Positions 46,223 to 63,194 of a stretch of DNA of 64,000 bases are shown piece after piece. Position numbers and translations under genes: made by a program. Every line of letters begins with the position of its first letter. Position 1 is the stretch's first letter. The notes beneath the pieces were generated by a model. The model saw nothing but the letters and a program-made list of their open reading frames with translations. It did no database searches and was not told where the DNA came from. Origin of the DNA: a virus; IMG/VR virus record IMGVR_UViG_3300037454_000146, positions 32,001 through 96,000 of that record; one strand, given 5' to 3'.

Positions 46223-46257
46223 TTATCTCTTGTTAATTATTTTACTATCGTGCAAAA

Positions 46258-49470: not shown

Positions 49471-49555
49471 CCTCCTTATAAATTACTGTAAAATTCTCAT
49501 TCTGCGTTTTGCCATATAGTTTGACCTGCAAAGGTGTAGCGTGGCAAATTTACAG

Positions 49556-50559: not shown

Positions 50560-50563
50560 ATTA

Positions 50564-51231: not shown

Positions 51232-51234
51232 TGT

Positions 51235-51378: not shown

Positions 51379-51447
51379 CGTTTGCGCCTCCTTTCTAACT
51401 TTGTACTGTGCGAGGAAATAAAAATACCGTCCTCATCTTTCAAGAGT

Positions 51448-51476
51448 ATTATAACACTAATTTTCTACCTTGTCAA
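51448..51476 (-). promoter_or_regulatory. Conserved extended -10 promoter
   Basis: Minus strand reads TTGACA-aggtagaaaattagtgT-TATAAT. A near-identical cassette recurs at 53007-53035. Confidence 0.6.
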
Positions 51477-51490
51477 GAGCTTTTTTAAAA

Positions 51491-51817
51491 TTATTTTGAT
51501 TCTCCAACGACAGGGAACAAATGAATAGAAAGATTAGTAAATGGCTTTATTGCATAAAGATTTTCATTTGTTTTACGTAATTTCCAATCTTCTGACCATT
51601 CATTAAGATTATGTAACATATCTTTAGTATTATTAACAATTTCCATATACTTCACTTCAGTTTTAGCCTTTTCGGACAACTGTGCGTCACACCACTGACA
51701 GTAAAGCTCTCTGAGTTCTCGAAGCTCATCAGACTTCATACATCTCGAATGTATTTCCAAAATGCCCTCGCAAGTTTTTAAATCATGCTTTCTTATTTTT
51801 TCGTCGTAATAAATCAT
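51491..51817 (-). CDS. Hypothetical protein
   Basis: 108-aa ORF with an ATGA-type overlap to the upstream gene. Confidence 0.5.
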   Translation of the reverse strand: MIYYDEKIRKHDLKTCEGILEIHSRCMKSDELRELRELYCQWCDAQLSEKAKTEVKYMEIVNNTKDMLHNLNEWSEDWKLRKTNENLYAIKPFTNLSIHLFPVVGESK

Positions 51818-52734
51818 TATATCTCTCCTTCTTTAATTAAAAACGCATCACTTAACCCTGTAAGCTCCATGATTTTTTCTTTATTAGCAAAAACGCTATA
51901 CAATCTTGGGTTGACACATAGGAACTCCCTTAGTTTGTCGTTCTTAGTGTCTTTAACTGAAATAAGAATGCTACGAGTGTCGCCATTGCGATCAGGATAC
52001 TGTATCTTTAAGAGCTGATTTACGAATCGTCCCGAATGAGACACGTCAAGTCCGAGTTTCTCACATAATGTTTCAACAGTCATTTTTCGTACTTTGTCTT
52101 TGTCGGTTTCAAGAGGGTTCTCACACAAAACATTATAAGTGAGGTTGATATAAGGAACTATAACATATAAATAGCCGAGCATCTTATGCGACGATACCGT
52201 AGCATTCTCATAAAGGAATCTTACGGAATGAATAAATAACTTCGCAGCCACTTGGTTTTTATCTTTTGTCATTGTGCCTTTGCCAAACTTATCAAGTGGC
52301 AATCTAAATCCCACATCATCCTCTAATAAATAATTGTTTGCCCTTGCCTCTTTTAGGAAACGCATAAATGTTCTATTATCCAACTTCAAAACTTCTTGAA
52401 TATTTTGCCTCGTCATAATTCTTCCATTATCAAAAGCAATATAATTGTCCTTGTTGATGTAAGTTGCCAAATACACGAGGCGAGCCACTGTTGGGTTGAT
52501 GATATTTGTGAAGTTCACCTCTAAAGGAACATAATAATTCCACACATAAGTGCCGCCATCGCCTACCGCACTAAGGAAGTCTTTTCTGTCCTGTTTCTCA
52601 ATTTCAAAATGTTTAACTCCAAATTCTCTGCGAGCATCAATCTCCGCCTGAGACTGCACATTAACTACCTCATCATCTTGCACGGGCTTCACTAAGCCGT
52701 TCTTCATTACGACCGCTTCTATGTCATTAGCCAT
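51817..52734 (-). CDS. Putative replication initiator / winged-helix DNA-binding protein
   Basis: 305 aa and first gene of the leftward operon. It is next to a ~1-kb ORF-free, repeat-bearing region. Function is inferred from context only. Confidence 0.4.
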   Translation of the reverse strand: MANDIEAVVMKNGLVKPVQDDEVVNVQSQAEIDARREFGVKHFEIEKQDRKDFLSAVGDGGTYVWNYYVPLEVNFTNIINPTVARLVYLATYINKDNYIAFDNGRIMTRQNIQEVLKLDNRTFMRFLKEARANNYLLEDDVGFRLPLDKFGKGTMTKDKNQVAAKLFIHSVRFLYENATVSSHKMLGYLYVIVPYINLTYNVLCENPLETDKDKVRKMTVETLCEKLGLDVSHSGRFVNQLLKIQYPDRNGDTRSILISVKDTKNDKLREFLCVNPRLYSVFANKEKIMELTGLSDAFLIKEGEI

Positions 52735-52789
52735 TAAAAACCACCTTTCCTAAATTGTTTGCCTATTTATAGCCTTCTATCACCATTTT

Positions 52790-52835
52790 CGCCATTTTTG
52801 TCACTTTTTTTGGGTTTTCTCGCCATTTTTGTCAC
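52790..52835. repeat. Two 15-nt direct repeats CGCCATTTTTGTCAC in the leader of the initiator-like gene
   Basis: Copies at 52790-52804 and 52821-52835. They are candidate iterons or an operator. Confidence 0.8.
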
Positions 52836-53006
52836 CTACCAAAAATGCCCATACGCCCCTAAACATAGAACTAAACTGGTGATTTTTGAGGACTGTCACT
52901 CTTATAGTATATAGTGACCAAGTTGGGGTTCTCCACAAAGTGAATTGAACGTATCATTTCTTTCTCTGTCAGAGCATACCTACCCCGTGCTTCTCTCCTC
53001 AATCCC

Positions 53007-53035
53007 ATTATAACACTAATTTCTTACTTTGTCAA
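53007..53035 (-). promoter_or_regulatory. Conserved extended -10 promoter for the leftward operon
   Basis: Minus strand reads TTGACA-aagtaagaaattagtgT-TATAAT. Confidence 0.6.
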
Positions 53036-53806
53036 GCCCCTAAAAGAAAAAAAAATAGCCCTTACTGTAATAGTAGCCGAGAGTTCTTTGGTAGCCCATA
53101 ATAATAAATATTTATTTTTCTCTTAAAGGTTGCCCAACTCGTTCCGCAACGGCGAGAATTGAAGTAGCCACTACTCCGCAAAAGGCTCGTAAAAGTCGCC
53201 ATTCGCCCCAAAGCCCAGTATTTCGCCCAAAAGCAGGGATTCCGTCAGAGTTTGCTCCGCAATTGCTGGGATTTGCATCTTCTTTTAAAGGCTATAATAG
53301 GGGATTTGTCCGAAAATGACAGCGATGAAAAATGGCATAAATTTCGCAGACTTTAAAAATTTAATGGACAGTGCGATTCATCACCTATGCCCTGCCTGTG
53401 CTGCGGAATCAGCCCCTAAAATGTAAATATAGCCCCTGATCCATCGCCAAAAAACCGCGATATATAGCCAAACAATTGATTTGTCCAAATGCAATTGTTT
53501 AAATTCTTATTTTATTAAAGATTCTGTAAAGATTCAAGCTCCAAAATCAGTGGCGAAAAGGTGTAAACTGTTTTTGCTTTACAGGCTTGTAAAGTGGTTT
53601 TAGTTTACAGTTCGCAAAAATGACTATTAATGAAAAGTGAAGAAAATAAGAGTATTAACAATCATAGTCAAGTTATTTTACAATAAAATATGCAATTCCG
53701 ATTTGCTGGTAATAATTCACACTTTTAACAAAGTCTCTTTTTGTATTATAATGGTATTATATATAAAGGGCAGCCTGATATACAAACTGTAAAGCTTGTA
53801 ATATGC

Positions 53807-54031
53807 CTATTTATCGGCGTTTATGACATATTCTGATAGATCAATATTATTATGTATGCAATAGTTTATACAAGCAGTCATAAAAGCAGTACGATTTAGA
53901 TTATTCTTTTTAGCTCCTGAATCAATATAATTAACAATATGCGGTCTAAGATTCATTACAATGCGTTTATAATTATCTTTTATATACTTTTGGTCATATT
54001 TCTTTTTGTCAAATTTATTTTCTTTTTCCAT
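53807..54031 (-). CDS. Small ribbon-helix-helix-like regulator (candidate repressor)
   Basis: Start at MEKENKFDKKKYDQKYIKDNYKRIVMNLRPHIVNYID follows the RBS GGAGG. It is divergent from the operator-bearing early promoter. A similar N-terminal pattern occurs in the 61468..61809 product. Confidence 0.5.
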   Translation of the reverse strand: MEKENKFDKKKYDQKYIKDNYKRIVMNLRPHIVNYIDSGAKKNNLNRTAFMTACINYCIHNNIDLSEYVINADK

Positions 54032-54131
54032 GATCCAAGCCTCCAAACGCCTATTTATGGGCAATTATAAAGTTTGTGCAATTTTTTATTGTATTTTTTC
54101 AAATTTATGATTTTTTTGTGCTGATTTATGC

Positions 54132-54280
54132 ACTATGTACATAGTATAAGCTGATCCGCTTACATCCTGAAACAGCCGACAGCCTGAATTTGGCTAGTTA
54201 CCGTTTATGCACTATGTACAAAGTGTGCTATTGTTTGTGAGATATGCACAAATCGCCCAACTTGAAACTATGTACACAGT
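54132..54280. promoter_or_regulatory. Three operator sites with 14-bp core ACTATGTACAnAGT
   Basis: 54132-54145 is ACTATGTACATAGT, a perfect palindrome. 54211-54224 is ACTATGTACAAAGT. 54267-54280 is ACTATGTACACAGT and overlaps the rightward promoter spacer. Confidence 0.7.
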
Positions 54281-54290
54281 GTGGTATACT
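54262..54290 (+). promoter_or_regulatory. Rightward promoter of the plus-strand gene block
   Basis: TTGAAA (54262-54267), 17-nt spacer, TATACT (54285-54290). Confidence 0.6.
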
Positions 54291-54782
54291 AAAATCACAG
54301 AAGAACGAAAGACACAAACAAAGCGGTCAGACAAACCGCAAAACATAAGCCAGTAAAGGTTAGCCAGAGTGACCGACAAATGACAGTAACTTGAAAATTA
54401 AATAGCTCCGAATCGGTAATGTGAAAAGCCGATTGACCGCGAAAAGCTGAAAAAGCAAGTAACGCGATAATAAACAGCCGAAAAGCCTTGACGGGATAAA
54501 GAGTAACTACCTCAAAGTCAAACGCCGATTAAGTGAGATAAAACGCGGAACGCCTAAAGCAAGTACAAAGAATATAAATGGAGCATAACGTAACAAGAGA
54601 TACAACACGCCGATATTTTTTGAAAGTTTTTCACGGCAGTTAAGCCAATCAGAAAAACAGTACAAGTCTATTATATCACGCTTGACTGCACAATGTCAAG
54701 CGATATCTGCCAAACAAGTTCAAGAGCTTGCAAGGCAGTCCAGAACAAGCAAATTAAATTAATATTTTAAGGAGGCATCATT
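54291..54782 (+). other. Roughly 490-nt ORF-free, A-rich and T-poor transcribed leader
   Basis: No ORF with an RBS lies between the promoter and the first gene at 54783. Hairpins include GCGGTcagacaaACCGC, AATCGG...CCGATT and GCTTGACtgcacaatGTCAAGC (around 54680-54703). Confidence 0.5.
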
Positions 54783-55115
54783 ATGAAAGTTAATGTTACA
54801 AGAAAGTCTATCGCTCAGAACTATTATTGCAAATCCGCAGGATATTGTTCTTTACAGTATCTCTTTAGAGGCATAGAGCCTAACTTCTACACACACGGCA
54901 TTTACGGATGGAACTTCGACGCGTACACACACGGTAACAAATGCGTGACTACTGGATACCGTAACATGATAGGCGATTCAATCCCCTATGACGTATGCAA
55001 GAAGTATGAAGAATCCGCCGAAAAGATATGGAGCTATGAAAATAAAGCTACATATGACGAAAAGAGAAAAGCAGCGGATGAACTTCTTGAAAAGTTTTGG
55101 AATGAGGCATTCTAA
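54783..55115 (+). CDS. Hypothetical protein
   Basis: 110 aa, RBS AAGGAGG. Confidence 0.65.
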   Translation: MKVNVTRKSIAQNYYCKSAGYCSLQYLFRGIEPNFYTHGIYGWNFDAYTHGNKCVTTGYRNMIGDSIPYDVCKKYEESAEKIWSYENKATYDEKRKAADELLEKFWNEAF

Positions 55116-55280
55116 TAAAATTCAAATTCAATGGTTTTTGACGGGCTGCACCATAAGCAACCCGATCCCATACCGCTATTTTTGCAATTTTTTCGTGCGG
55201 ACAAACTGAAAAATTACAAAACAATAGCGCGTTTGCAATAGTGAGCGCGTGACGACTGGAATATTTAAGGAGGTTATTTT

Positions 55281-55511
55281 ATGTATACAGAGAAGGAAAG
55301 AAAACAGCTTGAAAGAGCTTTAAAACGTGTTGAGAAGTGCAGCGGGGACTGTAAACATTGTGAAAAATGTCATATCTACACTTCAGAAAAATCTTTTTGC
55401 TATGCTATAGGATGCGACTTATTACCGCAAAATATGTTTGATATGATTGACGATCATATCACCACATTAAGACAAACAGCTATTGACTTACTTAAATTTG
55501 AATTATCATGA
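55281..55511 (+). CDS. Hypothetical Cys-rich protein
   Basis: 76 aa, RBS AAGGAGG, CSGDCKHCEKC motif. Confidence 0.6.
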   Translation: MYTEKERKQLERALKRVEKCSGDCKHCEKCHIYTSEKSFCYAIGCDLLPQNMFDMIDDHITTLRQTAIDLLKFELS

Positions 55512-55526
55512 AATGGAGGTTTAATT

Positions 55527-55679
55527 ATGAAAAAATATCGTGTTGATGTTTATTCAAAGTTTAATGCTGATATGCTTGTAAGTCGAAATTATGTGTTTTT
55601 TATGACTGAGTCAGAAGCTATTGAGTACGGAAATTCCATTGCTAATGGCAATACAGTAAACGTTATTGAAGTAAAATAA
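55527..55679 (+). CDS. Hypothetical 50-aa protein
   Basis: RBS GGAGG; not in the ORF track because it is below the size cut-off. Confidence 0.45.
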   Translation: MKKYRVDVYSKFNADMLVSRNYVFFMTESEAIEYGNSIANGNTVNVIEVK

Positions 55680-55780
55680 AATCAAAGTTTCAAATGCTTT
55701 TCAAGTGTATCAGCGGAAAAGTTGATACACTTCATAAAGCACTTGAAAAGTGCTAATATTGGAAAATCGGAGGCGATTAT

Positions 55781-55945
55781 ATGACCATTACAAGAATAAT
55801 CGACAAATACAATCCGCATAAAGTATGGATTATTAAGCGGACAAAATGCGGTCACTTTTATGTCAATCAGGAAATATGCGGACGGAAATTTTATACAGCT
55901 TTTCAGCGTATGACAAAAAGATATATTAAGGAGGTATTATCATGA
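55781..55945 (+). CDS. Hypothetical 54-aa protein
   Basis: RBS GGAGG, with an ATGA overlap to the next gene. Confidence 0.45.
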   Translation: MTITRIIDKYNPHKVWIIKRTKCGHFYVNQEICGRKFYTAFQRMTKRYIKEVLS

Positions 55946-56166
55946 ATACTATGGAAAAATTAAATGCTATGTCAATTATAAGCAAGTACGCACAAACCAA
56001 AAGGGAAAATTTGTATAACAATTCTCTTATGAAGGATGAGATCAAAAACATTATTGTATCATATGTAACCGAGACGGAAAATTTATTCAAAAAAGATTTT
56101 ATTACACTGGATGAGGCTGTAATGCGTATTGCAATGGCAGCGAGCTATGCGCTTGAAAATGCATAA
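55942..56166 (+). CDS. Hypothetical protein
   Basis: 74 aa, RBS AAGGAGG. Confidence 0.6.
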   Translation: MNTMEKLNAMSIISKYAQTKRENLYNNSLMKDEIKNIIVSYVTETENLFKKDFITLDEAVMRIAMAASYALENA

Positions 56167-56265
56167 CGGAAAAATAAAGCGGTTTTCTAAAGAGTTTTCC
56201 GCACAAAAAAGCTCTATTCCATACAGAAAAAACCACATAAAACACATATTCTAAAGGAGGTCATT

Positions 56266-56403
56266 ATGGAAAAATGGTATGCTTTAATGCAATGTGGCAT
56301 AGTCTACGAAGTGTTACATTGTACGGAAAATCAGATCAAATTAAAAGCAGCCCGATACAATCAGCAATCGGAAAAATTTTACTGGAGCTATGAAGAAGTA
56401 TAA
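56266..56403 (+). CDS. Hypothetical 45-aa protein
   Basis: RBS AAGGAGG 7 nt upstream. Confidence 0.45.
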   Translation: MEKWYALMQCGIVYEVLHCTENQIKLKAARYNQQSEKFYWSYEEV

Positions 56404-56409
56404 TAATTA

Positions 56410-56438
56410 TTGACATATCGAATGATATGTGATATTAT
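56410..56438 (+). promoter_or_regulatory. Internal promoter
   Basis: TTGACA, a 17-nt spacer ending in TGA, then TATTAT. Confidence 0.5.
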
Positions 56439-56473
56439 GGAACTATAGCAACGGAAAATTCAAGGAGGCGACT

Positions 56474-56725
56474 ATGGAAAAATATTGCATATATCACGCA
56501 CGTGGCATTTTTACGGAGTCAACTGCATATGCGGAAAAATCGCAAACAGAAATACTGGATGATATTCTTGCAAGCTATCCTGCATTTGTGCAGCTTGCAA
56601 ACTTTGATTCAGAAGCAGAAGCGGAAAAAGCATATAGCAAATACAATAACAATATATCAATACGGAAAAATGGTGACGGAGTTATCATAAACTATAACAT
56701 CTACACGATCAAAGCGGAAAATTGA
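56474..56725 (+). CDS. Hypothetical protein
   Basis: Start at MEKYCIYH follows the RBS AAGGAGG. Confidence 0.6.
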   Translation: MEKYCIYHARGIFTESTAYAEKSQTEILDDILASYPAFVQLANFDSEAEAEKAYSKYNNNISIRKNGDGVIINYNIYTIKAEN

Positions 56726-56775
56726 ACAGAAAATTTGCACAAGTTTTCAGTCGGAAATTTGTGCAGAATCCATAC

Positions 56776-56804
56776 TTGACAGAGTATAAAATTTGTGATA
56801 TACT
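56776..56804 (+). promoter_or_regulatory. Internal promoter
   Basis: TTGACA, a 17-nt spacer ending in TGA, then TATACT. The hairpin CAGGGAaaaTCCCTG follows. Confidence 0.5.
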
Positions 56805-56888
56805 ATAATCACAGGGAAAATCCCTGAATAGTTATGCCCTAACAAAGTAAGAAATTAAATGAAAAGTGTATTTTAAGGAGGTCTATTT

Positions 56889-57233
56889 ATGAATAATTAT
56901 TTTGAAAAGGTACAGGAAATAGCGGAAAATTTAGGCTGGAATGTTGAAATTCAGGATAATATTGCTATATTCCAAAGGTATAGCGGATGCGGTCAGGACT
57001 TCAATATTGAGCTTGACATAGCGGAAACTTCAGATGAATTTGCGGATAATCTTTATAACTACTATAGCGAATTTGACGTATCGTATGAAGCTTATCTATG
57101 GTTAGATAGCACTGGTCATGGAACTAATGGAGCACCATATGAAATGATAGATGTATACAACGATATGAAAGAATGTGAAGAAGCTATACATGAGTTATGG
57201 GCGGAAATTCACAACACAGATTTTGATGAATAA
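56889..57233 (+). CDS. Hypothetical acidic protein
   Basis: 114 aa, RBS AAGGAGG. Confidence 0.6.
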   Translation: MNNYFEKVQEIAENLGWNVEIQDNIAIFQRYSGCGQDFNIELDIAETSDEFADNLYNYYSEFDVSYEAYLWLDSTGHGTNGAPYEMIDVYNDMKECEEAIHELWAEIHNTDFDE

Positions 57234-57260
57234 AAGAGTGATTTAAAGGAGGTCGGAAAA

Positions 57261-57518
57261 ATGAAAATGTATACAGAGCTTGAAATAGCTGAAATAATAG
57301 GTGATGCCAATACGGAAAAAGCAATTGAAAAAGCTTTATCTGATATACCACATGAACGATCAAAAGAATGTGATTATTACAATATATATATTCCTTATCG
57401 CTGTAATGGCTGTATTAGGGTATATCTGGAAAAACGAGGTACACACAAATATTCAAGAATACAGCGACTTGTAAACACTACATTTAAGTATAGCGGAACG
57501 CCTGTATTTTTTGGTTAA
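57261..57518 (+). CDS. Hypothetical protein
   Basis: 85 aa, RBS AAGGAGG. Confidence 0.6.
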   Translation: MKMYTELEIAEIIGDANTEKAIEKALSDIPHERSKECDYYNIYIPYRCNGCIRVYLEKRGTHKYSRIQRLVNTTFKYSGTPVFFG

Positions 57519-57611
57519 TCATACGGAAAAAGCTTGACGGGGAGCTTACAATTCCCGTCACCATAGACGATAAACCACAAACCACAACGGAAAATTAAGG
57601 AGGTCAAAATT

Positions 57612-57881
57612 ATGAACGGAAATTTTATTGAAGCTAATCACAGTCGAGCAGTATTACATCTTGATAAGAGTACAGCGGAAAAATTAAACAGAATCGCACC
57701 AAAGGGATGCCCATTTGATGATTATACTTTCCTTGACTTACTGAAGGATTATGTATGGCAGTACGATTGGTTAGTGCAGGGAAAAATGAGCGTTATTAAC
57801 TTCATAAACATGATTAGCAATAAGAGCTATAACGCTTATGTGTACGGAAAAACAATTATTGAAGTGATTCAGGAGGCATGA
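57612..57881 (+). CDS. Hypothetical protein
   Basis: 89 aa, RBS AAGGAGG. Confidence 0.6.
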   Translation: MNGNFIEANHSRAVLHLDKSTAEKLNRIAPKGCPFDDYTFLDLLKDYVWQYDWLVQGKMSVINFINMISNKSYNAYVYGKTIIEVIQEA

Positions 57882-58084
57882 CTATGAAAACATCTTGTAT
57901 ATGCAGCGCACCTACAAAAGCCGATTTGGAAAAGCAGATCAACAACTACTTCTTATCGGAAAACTATGTTATCACAGACGATAACAGGGTATACAACACC
58001 AAAACGGAAAAGTATTGGAGTTCTGAAGCTGCTATAATAGTTGAGCGCAAAGGCAGATGGCAGTTCAGAAGGATTGAGAGCTAA
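57878..58084 (+). CDS. Hypothetical protein
   Basis: 68 aa with an ATGA overlap. Confidence 0.55.
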   Translation: MTMKTSCICSAPTKADLEKQINNYFLSENYVITDDNRVYNTKTEKYWSSEAAIIVERKGRWQFRRIES

Positions 58085-58115
58085 ATAAAATGACTGTTTA
58101 AAGGAGGAAATTATC

Positions 58116-58805
58116 ATGTTAAATGAAATGATTAAAGAATATAAAGAGCTTATGACTTCTCTTAATGAGATCAAGGAAAAAGCAGATACTATGCACAAGG
58201 AAATGTTTAAGACAGATATTAAAGACAGACTTGCCGACAAAAACAACTGGAAAAAGCAGCTTGATGAATATGCTGAAATGGAAAAGTGTGTAAAGCACAA
58301 ACAAGAATATCTGTACATTTTTCAGTATAACATATTCAATACTTTCATAGTAGAGAATATGGAAACTATGATGGGAATTATAAACAAGTATGCTAATAAA
58401 CCCATTGGGGAAAAACGTAGAAGAAACTTATACGATGAGCTTTACGCTCTTATTCCAAAAGAAGTTGTTTACACTTTCGGCATAAATGTCAAATACGGAA
58501 CTTTCGGCGGAATAGAAATATACCTTGATTACAAAAACAATCGTCATTGGGTATGGATAATTGATGATAAAGAAGGCAATACCTATTCAGAACTAACCGA
58601 GGAAAAGACGATTGATATAATCAGCAAGGCGAAGGGAAAAATCATTGACGATATTGACAAGTATATTGCTGATACTTATGAAAAAATAGCGATCCTTAAT
58701 GGAAAAATTGAAGAAGTCGAAAAGCTGTATTCAGAAGTTAGGGATGCAGCCAGTGAAATGAATATATGGTCGTATGATACAACTGTAAAGAAGTATAGAA
58801 CATAA
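58116..58805 (+). CDS. Hypothetical protein with N-terminal coiled coil
   Basis: 229 aa, RBS AAGGAGG. It is the only sizeable gene of this block with no CGGAAA site. Confidence 0.65.
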   Translation: MLNEMIKEYKELMTSLNEIKEKADTMHKEMFKTDIKDRLADKNNWKKQLDEYAEMEKCVKHKQEYLYIFQYNIFNTFIVENMETMMGIINKYANKPIGEKRRRNLYDELYALIPKEVVYTFGINVKYGTFGGIEIYLDYKNNRHWVWIIDDKEGNTYSELTEEKTIDIISKAKGKIIDDIDKYIADTYEKIAILNGKIEEVEKLYSEVRDAASEMNIWSYDTTVKKYRT

Positions 58806-58899
58806 AAGTAAACGCTTGTACTTGCCTATAATGGTCAGAGCTTATAGGCAATGACAAACGCTTAGCGGAAAATTAAAACGTATACAGGAGGTCGATATT

Positions 58900-59163
58900 A
58901 TGACAAATAAGGTAAAGGAAAACGCATATTCAGATTGGTTTGATATGATATTCAAATCATGGACATGGGAAAAGTTGACGGACAATGAGCGCACCGTATT
59001 TGTAGATCAGATGGATTCATGGTGCAATTGCAGAGGACTTCTCATTGGTACATACAAGCAGCGATGGGAAATCTTAAACGAGATGTATCACATATATCTG
59101 TTAGGCGTGGGATATGATTCACCTAATTGGAGAGACAACGCAGAGGAAAATCCAAAGTTTTAA
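58900..59163 (+). CDS. Hypothetical protein
   Basis: 87 aa, RBS AGGAGG. Confidence 0.6.
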   Translation: MTNKVKENAYSDWFDMIFKSWTWEKLTDNERTVFVDQMDSWCNCRGLLIGTYKQRWEILNEMYHIYLLGVGYDSPNWRDNAEENPKF

Positions 59164-59176
59164 GGAGGTCAATGTT

Positions 59177-59521
59177 ATGTTATCATTCAAACACATTTAC
59201 AATGCGGAAAAAGCAAAGGCAGTATGCGATATGTATACTGATATTGAAAAGACTTTTGATAAAGATGGTGGGAAAATCTGGACAATGACAGCACATTTCT
59301 GGAATAACACACATAAAGTCAAGGTTATACAGGCAGCAAGCGGAGATTATCAGTACAAAATTGATGAGGGAAATTTTGTGTGCAGTTTTGACGGAGATCA
59401 AATAACCATTAAAGAGGGCGTATATAACGGCAGAAAATGCAAGGCAGACAGCAATTTAAAGAAGTTTGAAAACATTTCAATGATGTTATATGCACTTGTG
59501 AAGTGCGGAAAATTAAACTGA
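59177..59521 (+). CDS. Hypothetical protein
   Basis: Start at MLSFKHIYN follows the RBS AAGGAGG. Confidence 0.6.
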   Translation: MLSFKHIYNAEKAKAVCDMYTDIEKTFDKDGGKIWTMTAHFWNNTHKVKVIQAASGDYQYKIDEGNFVCSFDGDQITIKEGVYNGRKCKADSNLKKFENISMMLYALVKCGKLN

Positions 59522-59533
59522 GGAGGCATGAAT

Positions 59534-59812
59534 ATGAATATCACGCTGAATGATTTGAGAGATATGTTTTGCAAGGCTACAAAGATAGTTCTTGTCAATG
59601 ATGTATTCGACAAAGACGGAAATTACATAGACACTGAGAGAATCGAGATTAATAATCTGCTATGGGGTACACCTACATTCGGCGGAATACCCGTAGAGCT
59701 TTATCGTGTACAGGCGATAGGGAAAAATGCAGTTGAAGTAACCACAAATATGCCTAATAGAGTATTTGCAGCATGGAAGGCATATGCAGAGGAAAATTCA
59801 GAGTACAATTAA
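59534..59812 (+). CDS. Hypothetical protein
   Basis: RBS GAGGAGG. ATG 59534 is better spaced than 59528. Confidence 0.55.
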   Translation: MNITLNDLRDMFCKATKIVLVNDVFDKDGNYIDTERIEINNLLWGTPTFGGIPVELYRVQAIGKNAVEVTTNMPNRVFAAWKAYAEENSEYN

Positions 59813-59882
59813 ATAACACTTTTAAGGCGGACACTGGCGAAAAGAAATATGATGCAGTCACAAATTTTAAGGAGGTGTGATT

Positions 59883-60170
59883 ATGGCTACACTATTACAG
59901 GCAATACAGCTTGCAGAGCGATTGGAAAAGTCGCATATCAAGGTTCTGAAGTGGTTTATCCAGAACGGAAATTTTGAAGGCTCATACAGAGAGCTTGCCG
60001 AGAACATTTACGGAAATGCTAAGTATGCAAGCAACGTTCACAAGTACATAACCGTACTCGCAGATATGGGACTTCTGGTAGTCGCGGTCAATACAGAGTG
60101 CAATTGCTTTGATACAAAGCGCACATACATCTATCTGAATAAGGAGAGTGATTTAATTGACGGTAATTGA
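59883..60170 (+). CDS. Hypothetical protein, possible winged-helix DNA binder
   Basis: Start at MATLLQ follows the RBS AAGGAGG. The segment SYRELAENIYGNAKYASNVHKYITVLADMGLLV looks like an HTH. Confidence 0.5.
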   Translation: MATLLQAIQLAERLEKSHIKVLKWFIQNGNFEGSYRELAENIYGNAKYASNVHKYITVLADMGLLVVAVNTECNCFDTKRTYIYLNKESDLIDGN

Positions 60171-60171
60171 G

Positions 60172-60321
60172 ATGTTGGAAAATCGGATAGCACAACATAG
60201 CGCAGCTCTATGCAGAGATTTGTCAGCCGAAGATCGCGCAAATATCACAGGCAGAATTGCAGAGGATAGGAATTTGATATTCATTCTCACAGCCAATAAA
60301 CAGATAAGTCGTGTAGAATAA
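60172..60321 (+). CDS. Possible 49-aa protein
   Basis: MLENRIAQHSAALCRDLSAEDRANITGRIAEDRNLIFILTANKQISRVE. The RBS is weak and a TTG at 60157 is an alternative start. Confidence 0.35.
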   Translation: MLENRIAQHSAALCRDLSAEDRANITGRIAEDRNLIFILTANKQISRVE

Positions 60322-60342
60322 AAAGAAAAAGGGGAGACAATT

Positions 60343-60561
60343 ATGAGAATCGTAATCAATGGAAAATCGTATAAACTAAGAGACAATATTGCGATACGCC
60401 TACGGGGAATTGCTTTGGCTATTGTAGCGGTATTCTGCTTTATCGCAGACGTAGACACGGCAGGAATATTCTTTGCTGGACTCGCAGCGTTAATGCTATT
60501 CCCGTATGGTTGCTTGTATCGCATTGCAGAGAAAATTGTCGAGAGCGAAAGGAGAATGTGA
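60343..60561 (+). CDS. Hypothetical two-helix membrane protein
   Basis: 72 aa, RBS GGGGAG, with hydrophobic segments. Confidence 0.55.
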   Translation: MRIVINGKSYKLRDNIAIRLRGIALAIVAVFCFIADVDTAGIFFAGLAALMLFPYGCLYRIAEKIVESERRM

Positions 60562-60693
60562 TATGTATGAAGCAGTAAAACACGAATTAGAACTAAGAGA
60601 TACTAACCAGAGAGGTTTACTTGGAAATTTGAGTTACCTTGAAGTGTTATGTCTCGCATATAAATTACACATATTTTAAGGAGGAAAAATCAA

Positions 60694-61413
60694 ATGAATG
60701 CAAACGTAAACACACAGATTGACAACATGGTAGACAACAAAGAGGAAGCAATAAAACAATATTGTAATGACATAATTAACTTCATACATCAAGACGTTAG
60801 CGGACTAAAGATAGCATGGAATATGTACTTAATAGAAGGATGCAAAGATAGAAATGTCGTGTACTTTATTGAAAATGCGGAAAATCATAATGTGAAGATA
60901 GGAAAAACAACTGATTTGATAACAAGATTAAAGAGACTACAGGATTGTGCGTCGCAAATTGGCATGCCTTTACCCCACCTAAAATGCAGGTGTGTTATTT
61001 GTTGCTCTACTAAAAAAGAATGCCATGCGTTGGAAAAAGAACTGCATAATCGGTATAAAAGCAAGCGTTGTGTTGGGGAATGGTTTAATATTTCAATTGA
61101 AGAAATAAAAAAATATTTAGACAAATGTTATGCAGAGCCTATAATTATAAATAACATACTTGTATATTGTGGACTTCCAGATGTTGAAGATATGGAAATG
61201 CCATTGATTATCGGAGATGACTACAATCGTTTTGTGGATTTATTGAATTACCTTAAAACTCATTCATTTGAAGAACATAATTTTTGGATAAAGAAATACT
61301 GTGGTATAACGTTTACAGAAGCAACTAATATTTATTGTCAATATAAGAATCGGAGATTGGATGATTTTATTAAAGATTTTTACGCGCCCTATCTTCCTAA
61401 AAATGACGAATAA
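60694..61413 (+). CDS. T5orf172 (GIY-YIG-like, MUG113-type) domain protein
   Basis: VVYFIENAENHNVKIGKTTDLITRLKRLQ...ALEKELHNRYKSKRCVGEWFNI matches the T5orf172 pattern (YxI...KIGxT...RxxxLQ...GEWF). Confidence 0.7.
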   Translation: MNANVNTQIDNMVDNKEEAIKQYCNDIINFIHQDVSGLKIAWNMYLIEGCKDRNVVYFIENAENHNVKIGKTTDLITRLKRLQDCASQIGMPLPHLKCRCVICCSTKKECHALEKELHNRYKSKRCVGEWFNISIEEIKKYLDKCYAEPIIINNILVYCGLPDVEDMEMPLIIGDDYNRFVDLLNYLKTHSFEEHNFWIKKYCGITFTEATNIYCQYKNRRLDDFIKDFYAPYLPKNDE

Positions 61414-61467
61414 AAGAAAAGCCCCTCACTAATCTGAGGGGCAATATCACAGTCAGCAGAAGAACGT

Positions 61468-61809
61468 TTATTCTTCTTCTCCTTCTTTGATTGTGAGGTT
61501 GTTCACGCTAATATTATTCTCGCGGGCATAAATAGCGTCAGCTTTGATTTTTTTAATCTCATCATCGGACATTTCAAAGGCTTCAGCAATCTCATGAATT
61601 TCATCATCGCTCCATTGACCACTCGCCATCTCATCGAAAATGTATTTGCGGATTGCATTGGAAATTAGTTTGGCTTTGCTGATATTGAAATGAGCGCAAT
61701 AAACACACGCGCCATTATAGGTGATTTGCTCGATATTAGCTTGAATCTTGGAGTAATGCTCTTTATTATACTTGTTGCTGGCTTTGATGTGAGCTTTTGT
61801 AACTGCCAT
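61468..61809 (-). CDS. Ribbon-helix-helix-like regulator
   Basis: Start at MAVTKAHIKASNKYNKEHYSKIQANI follows the RBS AAGGTGG. It is divergent from a promoter that carries two 16-nt repeats. Confidence 0.5.
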   Translation of the reverse strand: MAVTKAHIKASNKYNKEHYSKIQANIEQITYNGACVYCAHFNISKAKLISNAIRKYIFDEMASGQWSDDEIHEIAEAFEMSDDEIKKIKADAIYARENNISVNNLTIKEGEEE

Positions 61810-61843
61810 AAAAACACCACCTTTGTGCAAAAGTAACAATCTG

Positions 61844-61910
61844 ATAACCGTAATCTATGTTATCATTGTAGTAAAAATGTATTGCAAATAACCGTAATCT
61901 ATGATATAAT
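61844..61910 (+). promoter_or_regulatory. Promoter with two 16-nt operator repeats ATAACCGTAATCTATG
   Basis: Repeats at 61844-61859 and 61888-61903. The second fills the spacer between TTGCAA (61882-61887) and TATAAT (61905-61910). Confidence 0.65.
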
Positions 61911-61985
61911 GTAGCCATAGAAGAACGATTTCGTTCAATAATATTATACCATTTCCAATTGGAAATGTCAAGGAGGTCATGTAAA

Positions 61986-62255
61986 ATGAAGTTGTTTAGG
62001 AAATACATTCCGTTATGGGCAGAAAAACGCATAAAGGAATTGTACCGTGAGTGCATTAACGATGTAGTCCGCTGCCGTAAGGACGTGAACATCGAGGTTA
62101 TGCTCAACGGAAAAATGGTGCTCGACAAAAAGACCGTAGAAAAACTCCGCAAGTATTCCTTCGCGGTGGGTGAGGTTGCGGCTCTTGAGGTAATGATGGA
62201 CAGATTGTTTATCGAATACGATGATAAAGGAAAAATCAAAGAATTATATTTTTAA
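61986..62255 (+). CDS. Hypothetical protein upstream of recombinase (possible directionality/accessory factor)
   Basis: Start at MKLFRKY follows the RBS AAGGAGG. Function is guessed from position only. Confidence 0.45.
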   Translation: MKLFRKYIPLWAEKRIKELYRECINDVVRCRKDVNIEVMLNGKMVLDKKTVEKLRKYSFAVGEVAALEVMMDRLFIEYDDKGKIKELYF

Positions 62256-62267
62256 GGAGTGGTTGCT

Positions 62268-63194
62268 ATGCTAGCAAACGCAAAAGAACAGTGCAACATA
62301 ATAGAGATGTTTCCGCAGAACAAGCCCGACTTCTCAGCGATGATCCCTCAGAGCATACTGCCTGATACCGAGAAGGAACTCAATGAAGTTATCAGCATAG
62401 AGGATAACATGGCGGACTCCGAAGGAATGGACGCTATGAATGAGTCTATATTTAATGGCATGATTGACTATCTATTGGAAAAAGGCAAGACAAGAGATGC
62501 ACTGATGTACGTATTACAGGCGAATTTCGGAATACGCCACAGTGATCTCATTAAGCTAAAGCTCATAAACCTGATTGACGTTGACGGAAATTTCCGCGAT
62601 AAAGTTAATTGGTGCGAGCAGAAAACAAGCAAAACTCGCCAGTATGTAATTAACGATGCAGTCAAAGCGGCGACTATTATTTATCTCAGGACTCACGCAG
62701 ATAAGAAGTTGACCGACTTCCTGTTCACGGCAGAGGGGAAAAATAAGGGATATAAGAAGGCAACCTATAAAGACGAGAACGGAAAAGTCAAGGCACTTAG
62801 AGTGAACGGAAAATTTGTCTATGAGCGCGACGAGAACGGCAATCTTATTCCAGAACCGCTACGCAGAGATCAGGCGGAGAACACCTTGAAAGATGCTCTC
62901 ATTGCCATAGGCGTAAAGCTGAAGAACGACAGACGTTGCAAAGATGGTGAGTACAAACTAAATACGCACAGCAATCGGAAATTTTACAGCGAAAAGTTTA
63001 GTGAGGTTGCTTATGAGTTAAAGGCAAGTGGAAAGCTTAATGTGGATGCCGATGTGTTAGCATTGGTACAGCTTGATTTACGTCATAGCTCAATGCAGAC
63101 TACGATGCGATATAACCACAGTTTTGATAGAATAAAGGAGGTTGTTTGTCGGAATATGAACATCGGTCTTTCCGTCTTGGAGAGATACCTTTAA
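62268..63194 (+). CDS. Tyrosine recombinase / integrase (second copy)
   Basis: Catalytic residues are in FGIRHSDLIKL (R), NTHSNRKFY (H-x-x-R) and LRHSSMQTTMRY (R...Y). ATG 62268 lies 9 nt after AAGGAG. Confidence 0.8.
   Translation: MLANAKEQCNIIEMFPQNKPDFSAMIPQSILPDTEKELNEVISIEDNMADSEGMDAMNESIFNGMIDYLLEKGKTRDALMYVLQANFGIRHSDLIKLKLINLIDVDGNFRDKVNWCEQKTSKTRQYVINDAVKAATIIYLRTHADKKLTDFLFTAEGKNKGYKKATYKDENGKVKALRVNGKFVYERDENGNLIPEPLRRDQAENTLKDALIAIGVKLKNDRRCKDGEYKLNTHSNRKFYSEKFSEVAYELKASGKLNVDADVLALVQLDLRHSSMQTTMRYNHSFDRIKEVVCRNMNIGLSVLERYL

What the first reader, a model, noticed from the sequence alone, without database searches (positions are those of the whole stretch)
55600..60020. Strand-specific hyper-abundance of CGGAAA (consensus R-CGGAAA-A-W) in the rightward small-gene block
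Counts, all by hand:
- 31 plus-strand copies of CGGAAA between 55,627 and 60,016. Most are extended to (A/G)CGGAAAA(A/T).
- About 6 more copies between 60.8 and 63.0 kb.
- Only one copy of the reverse complement TTTCCG in 55.6-60.0 kb.
- Only scattered copies of either orientation in the 52 kb of leftward genes.
- A rough composition-based expectation for 4.4 kb is about 2 copies (my estimate; needs computing).

Where the motif falls:
- It occurs in all three codon phases: gCG GAA AAx, CGG AAA, xxC GGA AAx.
- It also occurs in intergenic DNA, RBS spacers (GGAGGTCGGAAAAATG) and hairpin loops.
- It is therefore a nucleic-acid-level signal, not a peptide repeat.
- The 690-nt gene 58116..58805 has none, as if acquired separately.

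Candidate roles, all unproven:
- A polar Chi-like site. Several copies embed AGCGG or GAAGCGG, which I recall as the Chi sequences of B. subtilis and S. aureus.
- A recognition word for a phage DNA- or RNA-binding protein.
- A replication or primase signal.
- A translocase-orienting skewed motif.
Basis: seen in the sequence. Interest (0 to 1): 0.75.

Follow-up and report, generated by a model that had tools for sequence, protein, structure and literature searches.

The report
Strand-polar CGGAAA word array, early genes
The early "host-takeover" genes of this large gut or rumen phage are saturated on one strand with the short word (A/G)CGGAAA(A/T); selection acts on the word as nucleic acid, it is conserved in related phages, and it matches the 5' handle of type III-A CRISPR guide RNAs, so it may be a new kind of RNA decoy.

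Summary
**Observation: confirmed and stronger than reported.**
- There are 31 plus-strand CGGAAA in 55,628-60,016 and one on the minus strand. The order-1 Markov expectation is 1.7.
- In genes, 23 copies are observed; synonymous-codon shuffles give 4.3±1.9.
- The core word is GGAAA(A): 83 plus-strand copies in 54.8-64 kb, 8 in the other 54.8 kb.

**Conservation.**
- Every relative found through a nearby marker gene, down to 30% identity, has the same sense-strand cluster, although the early genes themselves are not homologous.
- In 90-94% identical segments, 2 of 126 motif bases differ, against 7.8% of the other bases.
- A sister clade carries the word as a ~1.9-kb non-coding array, with σA-like promoters and flanking intrinsic terminators.

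**Rest of the genome.** The late operon is purged of the word on the same absolute strand: TTTCC 4 observed, 17±3.6 expected.

**Context.** The phage is ~100 kb, infects Firmicutes and encodes a YonO-like RNA polymerase.

**Function: unproven.**
- Best reading (about 0.45): an RNA-level, multi-copy recognition word on early transcripts.
- Favoured reader (about 0.2 overall): the type III-A Csm complex. ACGGAAA is the crRNA 5' handle in S. thermophilus, and in at least nine metagenomic arrays, one of them next to a full csm operon.
- Rivals: a polar DNA barrier or brake, another RNA-binding protein or RNase, and Chi. Chi is disfavoured.

The parts
55281..63194 (+). Whole motif-enriched zone: rightward early small-gene block with GGAAA(A) saturated on the sense strand
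   Evidence: 83 '+' GGAAA in 54.8-64 kb, against 8 in 0-54.8 kb. Every gene from 55,281 to 63,194 carries at least one copy. Enrichment ends at about 63.2 kb.
55628..58010 (+). Dense core: 25 CGGAAA in 2.4 kb (one per ~95 nt), in genes and in intergenic DNA
   Evidence: Positions are conserved in 90-94% identical relatives.
58866..60016 (+). Six further CGGAAA copies
60878..62981 (+). Tail of the cluster: six CGGAAA copies, with GGAAA still at 5-6 per kb
58116..58805 (+). 229-aa gene without CGGAAA but with 9 GGAAA (A/T/G-prefixed variants)
54783..55511 (+). First two early genes (110 and 76 aa), which lack the word. In all relatives the first 0.8-1.5 kb of the early block is also motif-free.
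52735..54782 (.). Regulatory gap between the divergent gene blocks: perfect σA-like promoters in both directions, operator-like direct repeats and an A/C-rich leader
56410..56438 (+). σA-type promoter inside the cluster (TTGACA-17-TATTAT, with TG)
56776..56804 (+). σA-type promoter inside the cluster (TTGACA-17-TATACT, with TG)
1..52734 (-). Leftward middle and late operon (lysin, tail, head, terminase, YonJ/K-like, PhoH, ClpP, YonO-like RNAP), purged of GGAAA on the '+' strand
   Evidence: 8 '+' GGAAA against ~29 expected, and none in 11.3-39.6 kb. Sense TTTCC is 4, against 17.1±3.6 in synonymous shuffles. The purge is reproduced in relatives with TerL identity of 74% or more.
46258..49113 (-). 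YonO-like single-subunit (RdRP-fold) RNA polymerase
   Evidence: tblastn matches to annotated RdRP-like genes of Enterocloster, Thomasclavelia and SPβ-like phages. Pfam RdRP hits on the homologues in relatives.
43586..43592 (-). One of only two sense-strand CGGAAAA copies in the late arm, 15 nt upstream of the YonK-like ORF start codon (43,571)
   Evidence: In SPβ the YonO-dependent TSS maps upstream of yonK (PMC5467207). The copy is only partly conserved in relatives.

Best explanation
**What the region is.** It is the immediate-early, host-takeover block of a ~100-kb Firmicute phage that encodes a YonO-type RNA polymerase.

**What the word is.** The sense strand of the block is overprinted with the word (A/G)CGGAAA(A/T), core GGAAA. 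The word is maintained by selection on the nucleic acid itself.

**Proposed action.**
- I think the word acts in the early transcripts made by host σA RNA polymerase.
- It would be a multi-copy, single-stranded recognition word, about one per 55-100 nt and rarely closer than ~35 nt.
- It would titrate or engage an RNA-binding machine, so the early RNAs double as a decoy or sponge. This holds for the mRNAs here and for the dedicated non-coding RNAs of the sister clade.

**Favoured reader.**
- The type III-A CRISPR effector (Csm). ACGGAAA is the repeat-derived 5' handle of type III-A crRNAs.
- Handle-sense copies in early RNA could act in two ways. They could sequester the handle-binding subunits Csm4 and Cas10. 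They could also force any crRNA raised against an early mRNA to carry an internal anti-handle.

**Shown.** The enrichment, the selection, the conservation, the strand polarity, the non-coding arrays and the identity to natural type III-A handles.

**Probabilities.** RNA-level recognition array: about 0.45. Type III-A handle mimic specifically: about 0.2.
For: **Nucleic-acid-level selection.**
- Codon shuffles do not reproduce the count.
- 8 of 31 copies are intergenic.
- In 90-94% identical segments, 2 of 126 motif bases differ against 195 of 2,516 other bases. Both changes are C>T and keep GGAAA.

**Conserved independently of gene content.**
- L130-135: 22-42 copies against 2-3.4 expected (L134, cut 3.4 kb into the early side, holds 5 against 1.1).
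- L124/L125: 18 against 0 on the other strand.
- L146-150 and L138 also carry the cluster.
- The early genes of these relatives show essentially no homology to those of the window.

**Always on the transcribed sense strand.**

**Sister clade (L022, L174, L219, L225, L235, L194).**
- The word forms a ~1.9-kb ORF-poor array.
- σA-like promoters conserved between L022 and L235 lie inside it, and strong intrinsic terminators lie at both ends. That is the anatomy of ncRNA genes.

**Spacing.** There is no 10.5-bp phasing, and spacings under 35 nt are about three-fold under-represented.

**Handle identity.**
- The S. thermophilus type III-A crRNA tag is 5'-ACGGAAAC-3'; that of S. epidermidis and L. 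lactis is ACGAGAAC (PMC9297841).
- A metagenome scan found at least nine CRISPR arrays whose 36-nt repeats end exactly in ...GGGG/GGAG-ACGGAAAT.
- One of them (L341) lies next to cas10/csm1, csm3, csm4, csm5, cas6, csm6 and cas1. Another, from human gut (L319), lies next to cas6 and cas1.

**Location.** Early regions are where phages keep anti-defence functions, and early transcripts are the most effective type III-A targets (own knowledge).
Against: - No transcript data exist. A block that is co-oriented with transcription is also co-oriented with any DNA process that diverges from the gap.
- Motif copies are no more accessible, and no more often in loops, than with shuffled flanks.
- The phage copies lack the hairpin that Cas6 and the known RNA anti-CRISPRs rely on.
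- It is unclear how a free 5' end at the handle would be made.
- The eighth base is A (22/31; 32/42 in L022), whereas natural handles have C or T there. The first base is A in only about half of the copies.
- The word is handle-sense. It is not the anti-handle that is known to switch off Cas10.
- The host, and whether it has a type III-A system with this handle, is unknown.
- The same-strand purge in the late operon is explained more directly by a polar DNA signal. Under the RNA model it needs an extra assumption: that antisense RNAs must not carry the word.
- The handle match was found after the fact, and a 7-mer coincidence is possible.
Confidence: 0.45

Rival explanations
1. **Polar DNA-level signal.** The word is read by a machine that traverses the genome in one direction. 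It could be an orientation-specific barrier or terminator for leftward RNA polymerase (for example the terminator-insensitive YonO-like enzyme) or for replication forks. It could also be a brake or stop for DNA packaging or ejection, analogous to T5 first-step transfer. Copies are concentrated in the early block and purged elsewhere on the same strand.
For: - Absolute-strand behaviour: '+' GGAAA is 83 in the early block but 8 against ~29 expected in the 52.7-kb late arm, with none across 28 kb.
- Sense TTTCC in late genes is 4, against 17.1±3.6 in synonymous shuffles.
- That purge is reproduced in relatives with TerL identity of 74% or more (2 against 11.9; 10 against 23.8). It is absent in PMBT24, which has no cluster.
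- The opposite orientation is near neutral in late genes.
- The cluster has a sharp proximal edge and a tapering distal edge.
- The sister clade has an 11-bp-periodic TGGAGAA array, a spacing typical of proteins that bind one face of dsDNA.
- In SPβ the pac site maps to the equivalent yonR-yonP region (PMC8270828).
Against: - The dispersed array shows no helical phasing.
- The conserved promoters and terminators around the non-coding array have no role in a DNA-only model.
- The purge is not seen in relatives at 48-61% TerL identity, some of which may carry clusters.
- No physical termini are known. Contig ends in the early block scatter, as expected from strain mosaicism.
- There is no precedent for a 5-8-nt word at 30-80 copies acting as a brake.
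Confidence: 0.25
2. **RNA-level word read by a factor other than CRISPR.** One option is a sponge for a global GGA-binding regulator, such as CsrA. Another is the target of a sequence-specific endoribonuclease or RNA-binding protein that marks early transcripts for timed decay or stabilisation, like T4 RegB acting on GGAG.
For: - The anatomy is the same as for the best explanation.
- ACGGA formally fits the CsrA core A(N)GGA.
- Spacings of 11-60 nt lie within the range a CsrA dimer can bridge (own knowledge).
- Every early gene carries at least one copy.
- The full word is mildly depleted in late mRNAs: GGAAAA 16 against 25±4.3, CGGAAA 8 against 13.6.
Against: - The strong conservation of C before GGA and of AAA after it is not CsrA-like.
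- The copies are not presented in loops.
- No candidate nuclease was identified, and the β-CASP gene of some relatives is absent from the window.
- The late-sense depletion is not reproduced in relatives.
Confidence: 0.2
3. **Chi-like site.** A polar word that attenuates host AddAB or RecBCD entering from a DNA end and stimulates recombination. It would protect or circularise the incoming genome and limit CRISPR spacer acquisition.
For: - The word is strictly polar and clustered.
- 12 AGCGG (B. subtilis Chi) and one GAAGCGG are embedded in the copies, with none on the reverse strand.
- Homology-block boundaries between relatives lie within 6 nt of a GGAAA more often than random positions do: 28% against 18%.
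Against: - A, not G, is the commonest base before CGG here and in relatives. In distant relatives the conserved unit is GGAAAA, so AGCGG is not the selected word.
- Purging the same orientation from the rest of the genome is the opposite of what Chi predicts.
- The boundary effect is small and can arise because conserved motif islands end BLAST alignments.
- The host genome is unavailable, so skew with replication could not be tested.
Confidence: 0.07
4. **Initiator or core promoter word for the phage's YonO-like RNA polymerase.** Transcripts would start at GGAAAA. Antisense-directed copies would be purged from the late operon.
For: - This explains the orientation-specific purge while sense copies stay neutral.
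- One of only two sense CGGAAAA copies in the late arm sits 15 nt upstream of the YonK-like ORF start. In SPβ the YonO TSS lies upstream of yonK, and the YonO promoter is unknown.
- Several copies abut Shine-Dalgarno sequences.
Against: - The yonK-upstream copy is TGGAAAA in L135 and absent in L122 and L130.
- Copies are not enriched upstream of start codons: 4 observed against ~3 expected.
- No second promoter element is conserved.
- Strong σA promoters already drive the block.
- One promoter per 55-100 bp is implausible.
Confidence: 0.05

Closest known systems
RNA anti-CRISPRs (Racrs; phage-borne solitary CRISPR-repeat mimics)
   Same: Both are phage-encoded RNA carrying repeat-derived sequence, sit in early or anti-defence regions, and are driven by their own promoters in the sister clade. 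Both are proposed to engage Cas proteins that recognise the repeat-derived part of crRNA.
   Different: Only the 7-8-nt 5' handle is copied here, with no repeat hairpin or Cas6 site. There are tens of copies instead of one. In this window the copies are overprinted on protein-coding mRNAs. The target would be type III-A. Function is untested.
Type III-A crRNA 5' handle (tag), e.g. S. thermophilus ACGGAAAC
   Same: The sequence is identical over ACGGAAA. Natural arrays ending in ACGGAAAT lie next to csm operons.
   Different: The phage copies are not part of repeats, are irregularly spaced, prefer A at position 8, and are handle-sense in target transcripts. They are not the anti-handle known to block Cas10.
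Protein-sponge RNAs with multiple GGA motifs (CsrB/RsmZ type)
   Same: Many copies of a short GGA-containing word lie in one RNA, and the sister clade has dedicated promoter/terminator units.
   Different: The flanks (C before, AAA after) do not match the CsrA consensus. The copies are not presented in loops. Here they are embedded in mRNAs. No such sponge is known in Firmicutes (own knowledge).
T4 RegB target GGAG in early mRNAs
   Same: A short word is concentrated in early transcripts, including next to ribosome-binding sites.
   Different: The word occurs mostly inside genes and in non-coding arrays. No cognate nuclease was identified. The late-mRNA depletion is weak.
Chi / KOPS-type polar chromosomal words
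   Same: A strict single orientation and strong over-representation of a 5-8-mer.
   Different: The word is confined to 8 kb and purged elsewhere. It is not any known Chi. Host skew is untestable here.
T5 first-step-transfer region / SPO1 host-takeover terminal repeat
   Same: A block of many small early genes with repeat-rich DNA next to a regulatory or terminal region.
   Different: No terminal repeat or terminus has been shown here. No comparable short polar word is described for those phages (own knowledge).

Membership tests
Chi site (AddAB/RecBCD) | The word is over-represented and skewed with replication direction in the host chromosome | not testable with these tools
   The host is unknown. 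The nearest named relatives are Eubacteriales or Clostridium MAG contigs that are themselves phage DNA.
Chi site (AddAB/RecBCD) | The conserved unit equals a known Chi (AGCGG or GAAGCGG) | tested here: not met
   Base -1 is A 16, G 11, T 4 here, and A in 27/42 (L022) and 13/18 (L124). In distant relatives the top word is GGAAAA.
Chi site (AddAB/RecBCD) | No selection against extra copies elsewhere in the genome | tested here: not met
   The same-strand copies are purged from the late arm.
RNA anti-CRISPR (Racr / solitary repeat unit) | Mimics a full CRISPR repeat, including the Cas6-recognised hairpin | tested here: not met
   There is no conserved sequence or G-rich stem upstream of the word (position matrix) and no structural signal.
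RNA anti-CRISPR (Racr / solitary repeat unit) | Contains the repeat-derived sequence of a real CRISPR type | tested here: met
   ACGGAAA is the 5' handle of the S. thermophilus type III-A system. It also ends the repeats of at least nine metagenomic arrays, one next to a full csm operon.
RNA anti-CRISPR (Racr / solitary repeat unit) | Inhibits the cognate CRISPR system; the host carries that system | not testable with these tools
   There is no host genome and no experiment.
CsrB/RsmZ-type sponge RNA | Multiple GGA motifs in a dedicated non-coding RNA | tested here: inconclusive
   Met by prediction in the sister clade, which has promoters and terminators around a ~1.9-kb array. In the window the copies lie in mRNAs.
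CsrB/RsmZ-type sponge RNA | GGA presented in hairpin loops or accessible sites | tested here: not met
   Unpaired probability is 0.647 against 0.617 with shuffled flanks (p = 0.24-0.39) in the window. In L022 it is 0.653 against 0.647.
Iterons / centromere-like arrays / pac-site repeats | Tandem or helically phased direct repeats in a compact array | tested here: not met
   There are no tandem repeats in the window and no 10-11-bp periodicity. Only the sister clade has an 11-bp TGGAGAA array.
Phage RNA-polymerase promoter | Conserved multi-element consensus at a fixed distance upstream of genes | tested here: not met
   No second conserved element. 4 of 31 copies lie 5-35 nt upstream of start codons, against ~3 expected.
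Peptide repeat / codon-usage artefact | The count is reproduced when protein sequence and codon usage are preserved | tested here: not met
   23 observed against 4.3±1.9 (maximum 12 of 3,000).

The most novel reading that the evidence does not exclude
The early transcripts of these phages are saturated with mimics of the type III-A crRNA 5' handle (ACGGAAA). These are coding mRNAs in this clade and dedicated ~2-kb non-coding RNAs in the sister clade. This would be a new, hairpin-less class of RNA anti-CRISPR. It could soak up the handle-binding Csm4/Cas10 module. It could also 'poison' any crRNA raised against early genes with an internal anti-handle. The word should then co-vary with the host's repeat handle across phage lineages.
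Probability: 0.2. Interest if true: 0.9.

Novelty: new variant of a known kind. Interest (0 to 1): 0.8.

Why it matters
- A 7-9-nt word is maintained at 30-80 copies on one strand of the first-expressed DNA. It is written over unrelated genes in several phage lineages and purged from the rest of the genome. I know of no description of this for any phage. It implies a trans-acting reader that matters during the first minutes of infection.
It would also show that anti-defence information can be overprinted on coding sequence.
- Either way, the prediction that the phage word tracks the host repeat handle can be tested directly, by computation and at the bench.

Tried and rejected
**Explanations rejected**
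- Composition or codon artefact: rejected by Markov and codon shuffles.
- Local duplication or tandem repeat: TRF finds nothing in the window.
- Helical phasing: none.
- Primase recognition site: the strand distribution would leave the lagging strands of a bidirectional origin in the gap without sites (reasoned).
- Anti-handle ('self' flag) protection from type III: rejected on orientation. The sense RNAs carry the handle, not its complement, and UUUCC is purged rather than enriched in the late mRNAs.
- A link to the YonO polymerase in general: PMBT24 (complete genome) and the 96 kb examined of the 176-kb MT835469 also encode it but show no cluster.
- Contig ends as evidence for genome termini: rejected, because the ends scatter within the mosaic early block.

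**Tests with no or weak signal**
- RNA accessibility or loop presentation: no signal.
- Known RNA families: no Rfam hit reaches its gathering score, either in the window at 50-64 kb or in the sister-clade array.
- Promoter function: no second element and no enrichment upstream of start codons.
- Mosaic breakpoints at the word: only a weak excess, which may be an alignment artefact.
- SPβ-like BUCT082 yonN-yonK spacer: no GGAAA array there.

**Searches that found nothing**
- megablast of 54-62 kb and 30-50 kb against 50,697 phage records: no match.
- PHROGs for the small early proteins (10 of them; Pfam was run only on three larger genes of the block): no function found.
- Spacers of the ACGGAAAT-type array L420 against cultured phages: no match.

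**False leads removed**
- Other IMG/VR loci with many CGGAAA (L046, L006, L023, L036, L186 and others) are explained by their trinucleotide composition.
- Short 14-16-nt tandem arrays containing ACGGAAAA (L187, L232, L253) are products of the search pattern.

Full report
**1. The observation**

- 31 '+' CGGAAA lie between 55,628 and 60,016, with one '-' copy at 56,196.
- Six more '+' copies lie at 60,878-62,976.
- Only 2 '+' and 11 '-' copies lie in the 52.7 kb of leftward genes.

The expectation for the 4.4-kb interval is far lower.
- Order 0 and order 1 Markov models give 1.6-1.7.
- An order-2 simulation gives 5.8 (maximum 14). Order-1 simulations never exceed 8 in 2,000 runs.
- By order-1 z-score, CGGAAA (22.7) and GGAAAA (18.7) are the two most over-represented hexamers of the interval.

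I called 14 genes, all with Firmicute-type AAGGAGG ribosome-binding sites. They agree with the gene calls on an identical Logan contig.
- 23 copies lie inside genes: phase 0, 2; phase 1, 13; phase 2, 8.
- 8 copies are intergenic or overlap a gene end.
- Shuffling synonymous codons, which keeps the proteins and the codon usage, gives 4.3±1.9 copies (maximum 12 in 3,000).
- Permuting codon order gives 2.1±1.4.
- Ala before GAA is GCG in 7 of 10 cases, but in 7 of 60 cases elsewhere.

The extended consensus has no C at -1 or -2, a purine at -1, then CGGAAA, A/T, W, T.

Two corrections are needed.
- The selected core is GGAAA(A). In the interval there are 61 GGAAA and 45 GGAAAA against 2 and 1 reverse complements. 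In genes GGAAA is 50 against 20.9±3.1.
- Gene 58,116-58,805 lacks the C-prefixed hexamer but carries nine GGAAA. It is therefore not an exception.

The enriched zone runs from about 55.3 to 63.2 kb. It holds 83 '+' GGAAA. It ends before the IS605-type tnpB gene and the genes beyond the window.

**2. What the window is**

The window comes from a tailed phage with no close relative among 50,697 deposited phage genomes.

The leftward arm (1-52.7 kb) encodes the following:
- a lysin, tail proteins, a tape-measure protein, portal and large terminase;
- a tyrosine recombinase and tRNA-Glu;
- a YonJ-like metallophosphoesterase and a YonK-like ORF;
- an HNH-AP2 endonuclease, PhoH and ClpP;
- a 951-aa protein.

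The 951-aa protein matches the RdRP-fold, YonO-type RNA polymerases of Enterocloster, Thomasclavelia and SPβ-like phages. Its homologues in relatives hit Pfam RdRP.

A 2-kb gap (52,735-54,782) carries perfect σA-type promoters in both directions and operator-like repeats. Small rightward genes follow. The first two (54,783-55,511) lack the word. The cluster then starts abruptly. It contains further strong σA-type promoters at 56,410 and 56,776.

This layout matches SPβ, where YonO transcribes the late operon from a start site upstream of yonK and the pac site maps near yonR-yonP (PMC5467207; PMC8270828).

**3. Relatives**

I used the 305-aa gene next to the gap as a marker and recovered relatives from several collections.

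| Loci | Marker identity | Source | Sense-strand cluster |
|---|---|---|---|
| L130-L135 | 93% | ENA metagenomes | 22-42 CGGAAA against 2-3.4 expected and 0-3 on the other strand (L134 is cut 3.4 kb into the early side and holds 5) |
| L124/L125 | 56% | ENA metagenomes | 18 against 0 |
| L146-L150 | 37-59% | IMG/VR | 12-23 CGGAAA; GGAAAA 31-36 per 3 kb in L146-L149 with no reverse complement |
| L138 | 30% | Eubacteriales MAG | 13 CGGAAA in 2 kb |

- The early genes of these phages are mosaic and mostly not homologous to those of the window. The word therefore follows the region, not the proteins.
- In every case the first 0.8-1.5 kb of the early block is free of the word.
- Where homologous segments exist at 90-94% identity, 2 of 126 motif bases differ against 195 of 2,516 other bases. 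Both changes are C>T and leave TGGAAA. At ~70% identity, half of the copies persist and new ones appear.
- Individual sites are therefore under purifying selection in the short term. Over longer times sites turn over while the density stays conserved.
- The cluster is absent from Enterocloster phage PMBT24 and from the 96 kb examined of the 176-kb MT835469. Several more distant marker homologues also lack it.

**4. A sister clade with non-coding arrays**

Pattern scans of IMG/VR for clustered copies found a second group: L022, L174, L219, L225, L235, L194 and L255. Their contigs are 70-130 kb.

They share no DNA similarity with the window but have the same architecture.
- A leftward arm carries a 966-aa YonO-like gene, 22% identical to the window's.
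- A gap with palindromic operators follows.
- The rightward side then contains, in order:
  - one or a few small genes;
  - a terminator;
  - a ~350-nt array of TGGAGAA/TGGAAAA at 11-nt period;
  - a 53-aa membrane ORF;
  - a terminator;
  - a ~1.9-kb ORF-poor stretch with about 35 copies of ACGGAAAAW, one per ~55 nt and all in one orientation;
  - a strong intrinsic terminator.
- σA-like promoters inside the stretch are conserved between L022 and L235.

A third, GC-richer locus (L176) also ranks CGGAAA first: 43 against 13.6 under an order-2 model. Other loci with many copies are explained by their composition.

**5. The rest of the genome avoids the word on the same strand**

- On the '+' strand, GGAAA occurs 8 times in 0-54.8 kb, with about 29 expected, and not at all between 11.3 and 39.6 kb.
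- In 41.5 kb of late coding sequence, the sense strand has 4 TTTCC. Synonymous shuffles give 17.1±3.6 (minimum 9 in 300) and codon permutation gives 24.1±4.7.
- Sense GGAAA in late genes is only mildly low: 55 against 69.4±6.9.
- Neighbouring words (TTTCA, TTTCG, TTTCT) are near expectation.
- The TTTCC purge recurs in the late regions of relatives at 93-97% TerL identity (2 against 11.9) and at 74-78% (10 against 23.8). It fades at 48-61% identity and is absent from PMBT24.
- There are two equivalent descriptions. Either one absolute strand carries a signal confined to the early block, or no mRNA of this lineage may contain the complement of the word.

**6. Tests that constrain the mechanism**

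- The dispersed copies show no 10-11-bp phasing. Spacings below ~35 nt are about three-fold under-represented.
- Motif copies are not more unpaired than with shuffled flanks.
- No Rfam family fits.
- No second conserved element accompanies the word, and copies are not enriched upstream of start codons.
- One of only two sense CGGAAAA copies in the late arm lies 15 nt upstream of the YonK-like ORF start. The copy is TGGAAAA in L135 and missing in L122 and L130.
- Homology-block boundaries lie within 6 nt of a GGAAA in 28% of cases against 18% for random positions. This could simply reflect conserved motif islands ending the alignments.

**7. The word is a type III-A crRNA handle**

- The 8-nt repeat-derived 5' tag of S. 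thermophilus type III-A crRNAs is ACGGAAAC. That of S. epidermidis and L. lactis is ACGAGAAC (PMC9297841).
- I scanned metagenome contigs for ACGGAAAW at CRISPR-like spacing and then analysed the sequence context.
- At least nine arrays have 36-nt repeats that end exactly in this word after a short G:C hairpin. In these arrays 27-28 upstream positions are conserved and at most one downstream.
  - L341, L386 and L420: ATAAGAATGAATGATACTCCGTAAGGAG-ACGGAAAT.
  - L305: ...CCCCGAAAGGGG-ACGGAAAT.
  - L407, L421, L422, L423 and human-gut L319.
  - A tenth, L398, ends in ACGGAAAA, with 12 conserved upstream positions.
- The L341 array lies beside cas10/csm1 (HD plus palm), csm3, csm4, csm5, cas6, csm6 (CARF-HEPN) and cas1. 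L319 lies beside cas6 and cas1.
- ACGGAAA is therefore a genuine type III-A handle in nature.
- The sister clade's 11-nt unit TGGAGAA resembles the other known handle in 5 of 8 positions, which is weak.
- In the phage the word is handle-sense in the early RNAs.
- The under-representation of spacings below ~35-40 nt matches the length of a mature crRNA (own knowledge).

**8. Interpretation**

Shown:
- a strand-polar word under nucleotide-level selection;
- a word specific to the early block and conserved over deep divergence and across unrelated genes;
- a word able to exist as promoter- and terminator-bounded non-coding arrays;
- a word avoided elsewhere;
- a word identical to a type III-A handle.

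Inferred: the word works in the early transcripts as a multi-copy recognition site for an RNA-binding machine. I put this at about 0.45. The favoured reader is Csm, at about 0.2 overall. Two modes of action are possible.
- Handle-mimic decoys could sequester Csm4/Cas10.
- Any crRNA complementary to an early mRNA would contain an internal anti-handle.

Under RNA-level models the late-arm purge needs an added assumption: antisense RNAs must not carry the word. For example, a pseudo-crRNA made from an antisense RNA would guide Csm3 cleavage of late mRNAs.

The main rival (about 0.25) is a polar DNA signal. It could be a barrier or terminator, or a packaging or ejection brake. It explains the purge directly but not the ncRNA-like anatomy.

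Other RNA readers (CsrA-type sponge, RegB-type nuclease target) have about 0.2. Chi-like function has about 0.07 and a YonO initiator about 0.05. Neutral or compositional origin is excluded.

**9. Novelty and verdict**

I found no description of such a word array. Two literature searches returned nothing on the word in phages or on the YonO promoter, which PMC5467207 states is undetermined.

By logic it is closest to sponge or decoy RNAs and to RNA anti-CRISPRs. It fails their defining structural features: there is no loop presentation and no repeat hairpin. Here it is also written over coding sequence. I file it as a new variant of a known kind, with a real chance of being a new class.

The finding is real, general to several phage lineages, and leads to a sharp, testable prediction: co-variation of the phage word with the host repeat handle.

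Noticed in passing
window 46258-49113 (-): A 951-aa ORF with no Pfam hit is a YonO-like (RdRP-fold, two-barrel) single-subunit RNA polymerase. YonJ-like, YonK-like, PhoH and ClpP genes lie nearby. The phage therefore belongs to a largely uncultured gut and rumen group with SPβ-like late transcription.
   Followed up: partly
window 1-52734 (sense strand of the leftward genes): Short palindromes are strongly avoided. CTAG-containing pentamers are 0 against 34-50 expected. GATC, CATG, TTCGAA and GAATTC are near zero, and GAAGAC is also near zero. This looks like restriction-site avoidance.
   Followed up: no
window 1875-3035 (-) and 63322-64437 (+): Two IS605-family OrfB/TnpB (Cas12f-like TNB domain) genes lie inside the phage genome. 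One sits immediately after the distal edge of the motif zone.
   Followed up: no
window 52735-54782: The gap is a regulatory region. It has perfect σA-consensus promoters at 53035(-), 54699(-) and 54262(+). It has direct repeats TCGCCATTTTTGTCAC (52.78-52.84 kb) and three CACTATGTACA-type repeats (54.13-54.29 kb). It has a ~500-nt A/C-rich, G-poor leader with repeated GCCGA. Relatives carry an HTH_26 gene here.
   Followed up: partly
window 43668-44474 (-), 60694-61413 (+), 24076-25167 (-): Three homing-endonuclease-like genes: HNH+AP2, GIY-YIG/T5orf172, and a NUMOD1-containing protein. There are also two tyrosine-recombinase-like genes (39693-40721 and 62268-63194) and a tRNA-Glu(UUC) at 40894-40971.
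   Followed up: no
L235 4190-4540 (- strand); L022 1-200: An array of about 25 units of (T/A)TGTGGAGAAA at 11-nt period lies just upstream of a 53-aa hydrophobic ORF and is bounded by terminators. Its role is unknown. It could be a centromere- or pac-like DNA site, or a second handle-like RNA array (compare ACGAGAAC).
   Followed up: partly
L235 6350-6500 (- strand): Three copies of the palindrome TTGTCCACGTTTTTTGTGGACAA lie at the start of the late arm. They are probably repressor operators. An AT-rich region with ATCA(A/G)AGAT repeats follows and could be an origin.
   Followed up: no
L303 (Bacillus phage BUCT082) 7243-8962: A 1.7-kb apparently structured non-coding region lies between the HU-like gene and yonK. 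This is where the SPβ paper places the YonO start site and an unannotated ncRNA. It was not screened against Rfam.
   Followed up: no
window 56167-56201: The single reverse-oriented copy (56195-56201) pairs with the forward copy at 56167 (CGGAAAA...TTTTCCG). Together they form a 7-bp stem in the intergenic region after gene 55942-56166.
   Followed up: no
L333, L317, L415, L417 (metagenome contigs): Other CRISPR repeat families carry ACGGAAA(A/T) inside the repeat rather than at its 3' end. One example is GTCCGAAACGGAAATCCAGCAAAACAAGGATTGAAAC.
   Followed up: no
early blocks of window, L130-135, L124, L146-150, L138: The early block is highly mosaic between strains that are 93% identical in the adjacent marker gene, and many assemblies break inside it. 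Homology-block ends fall near motif copies slightly more often than chance (28% against 18% within 6 nt).
   Followed up: partly
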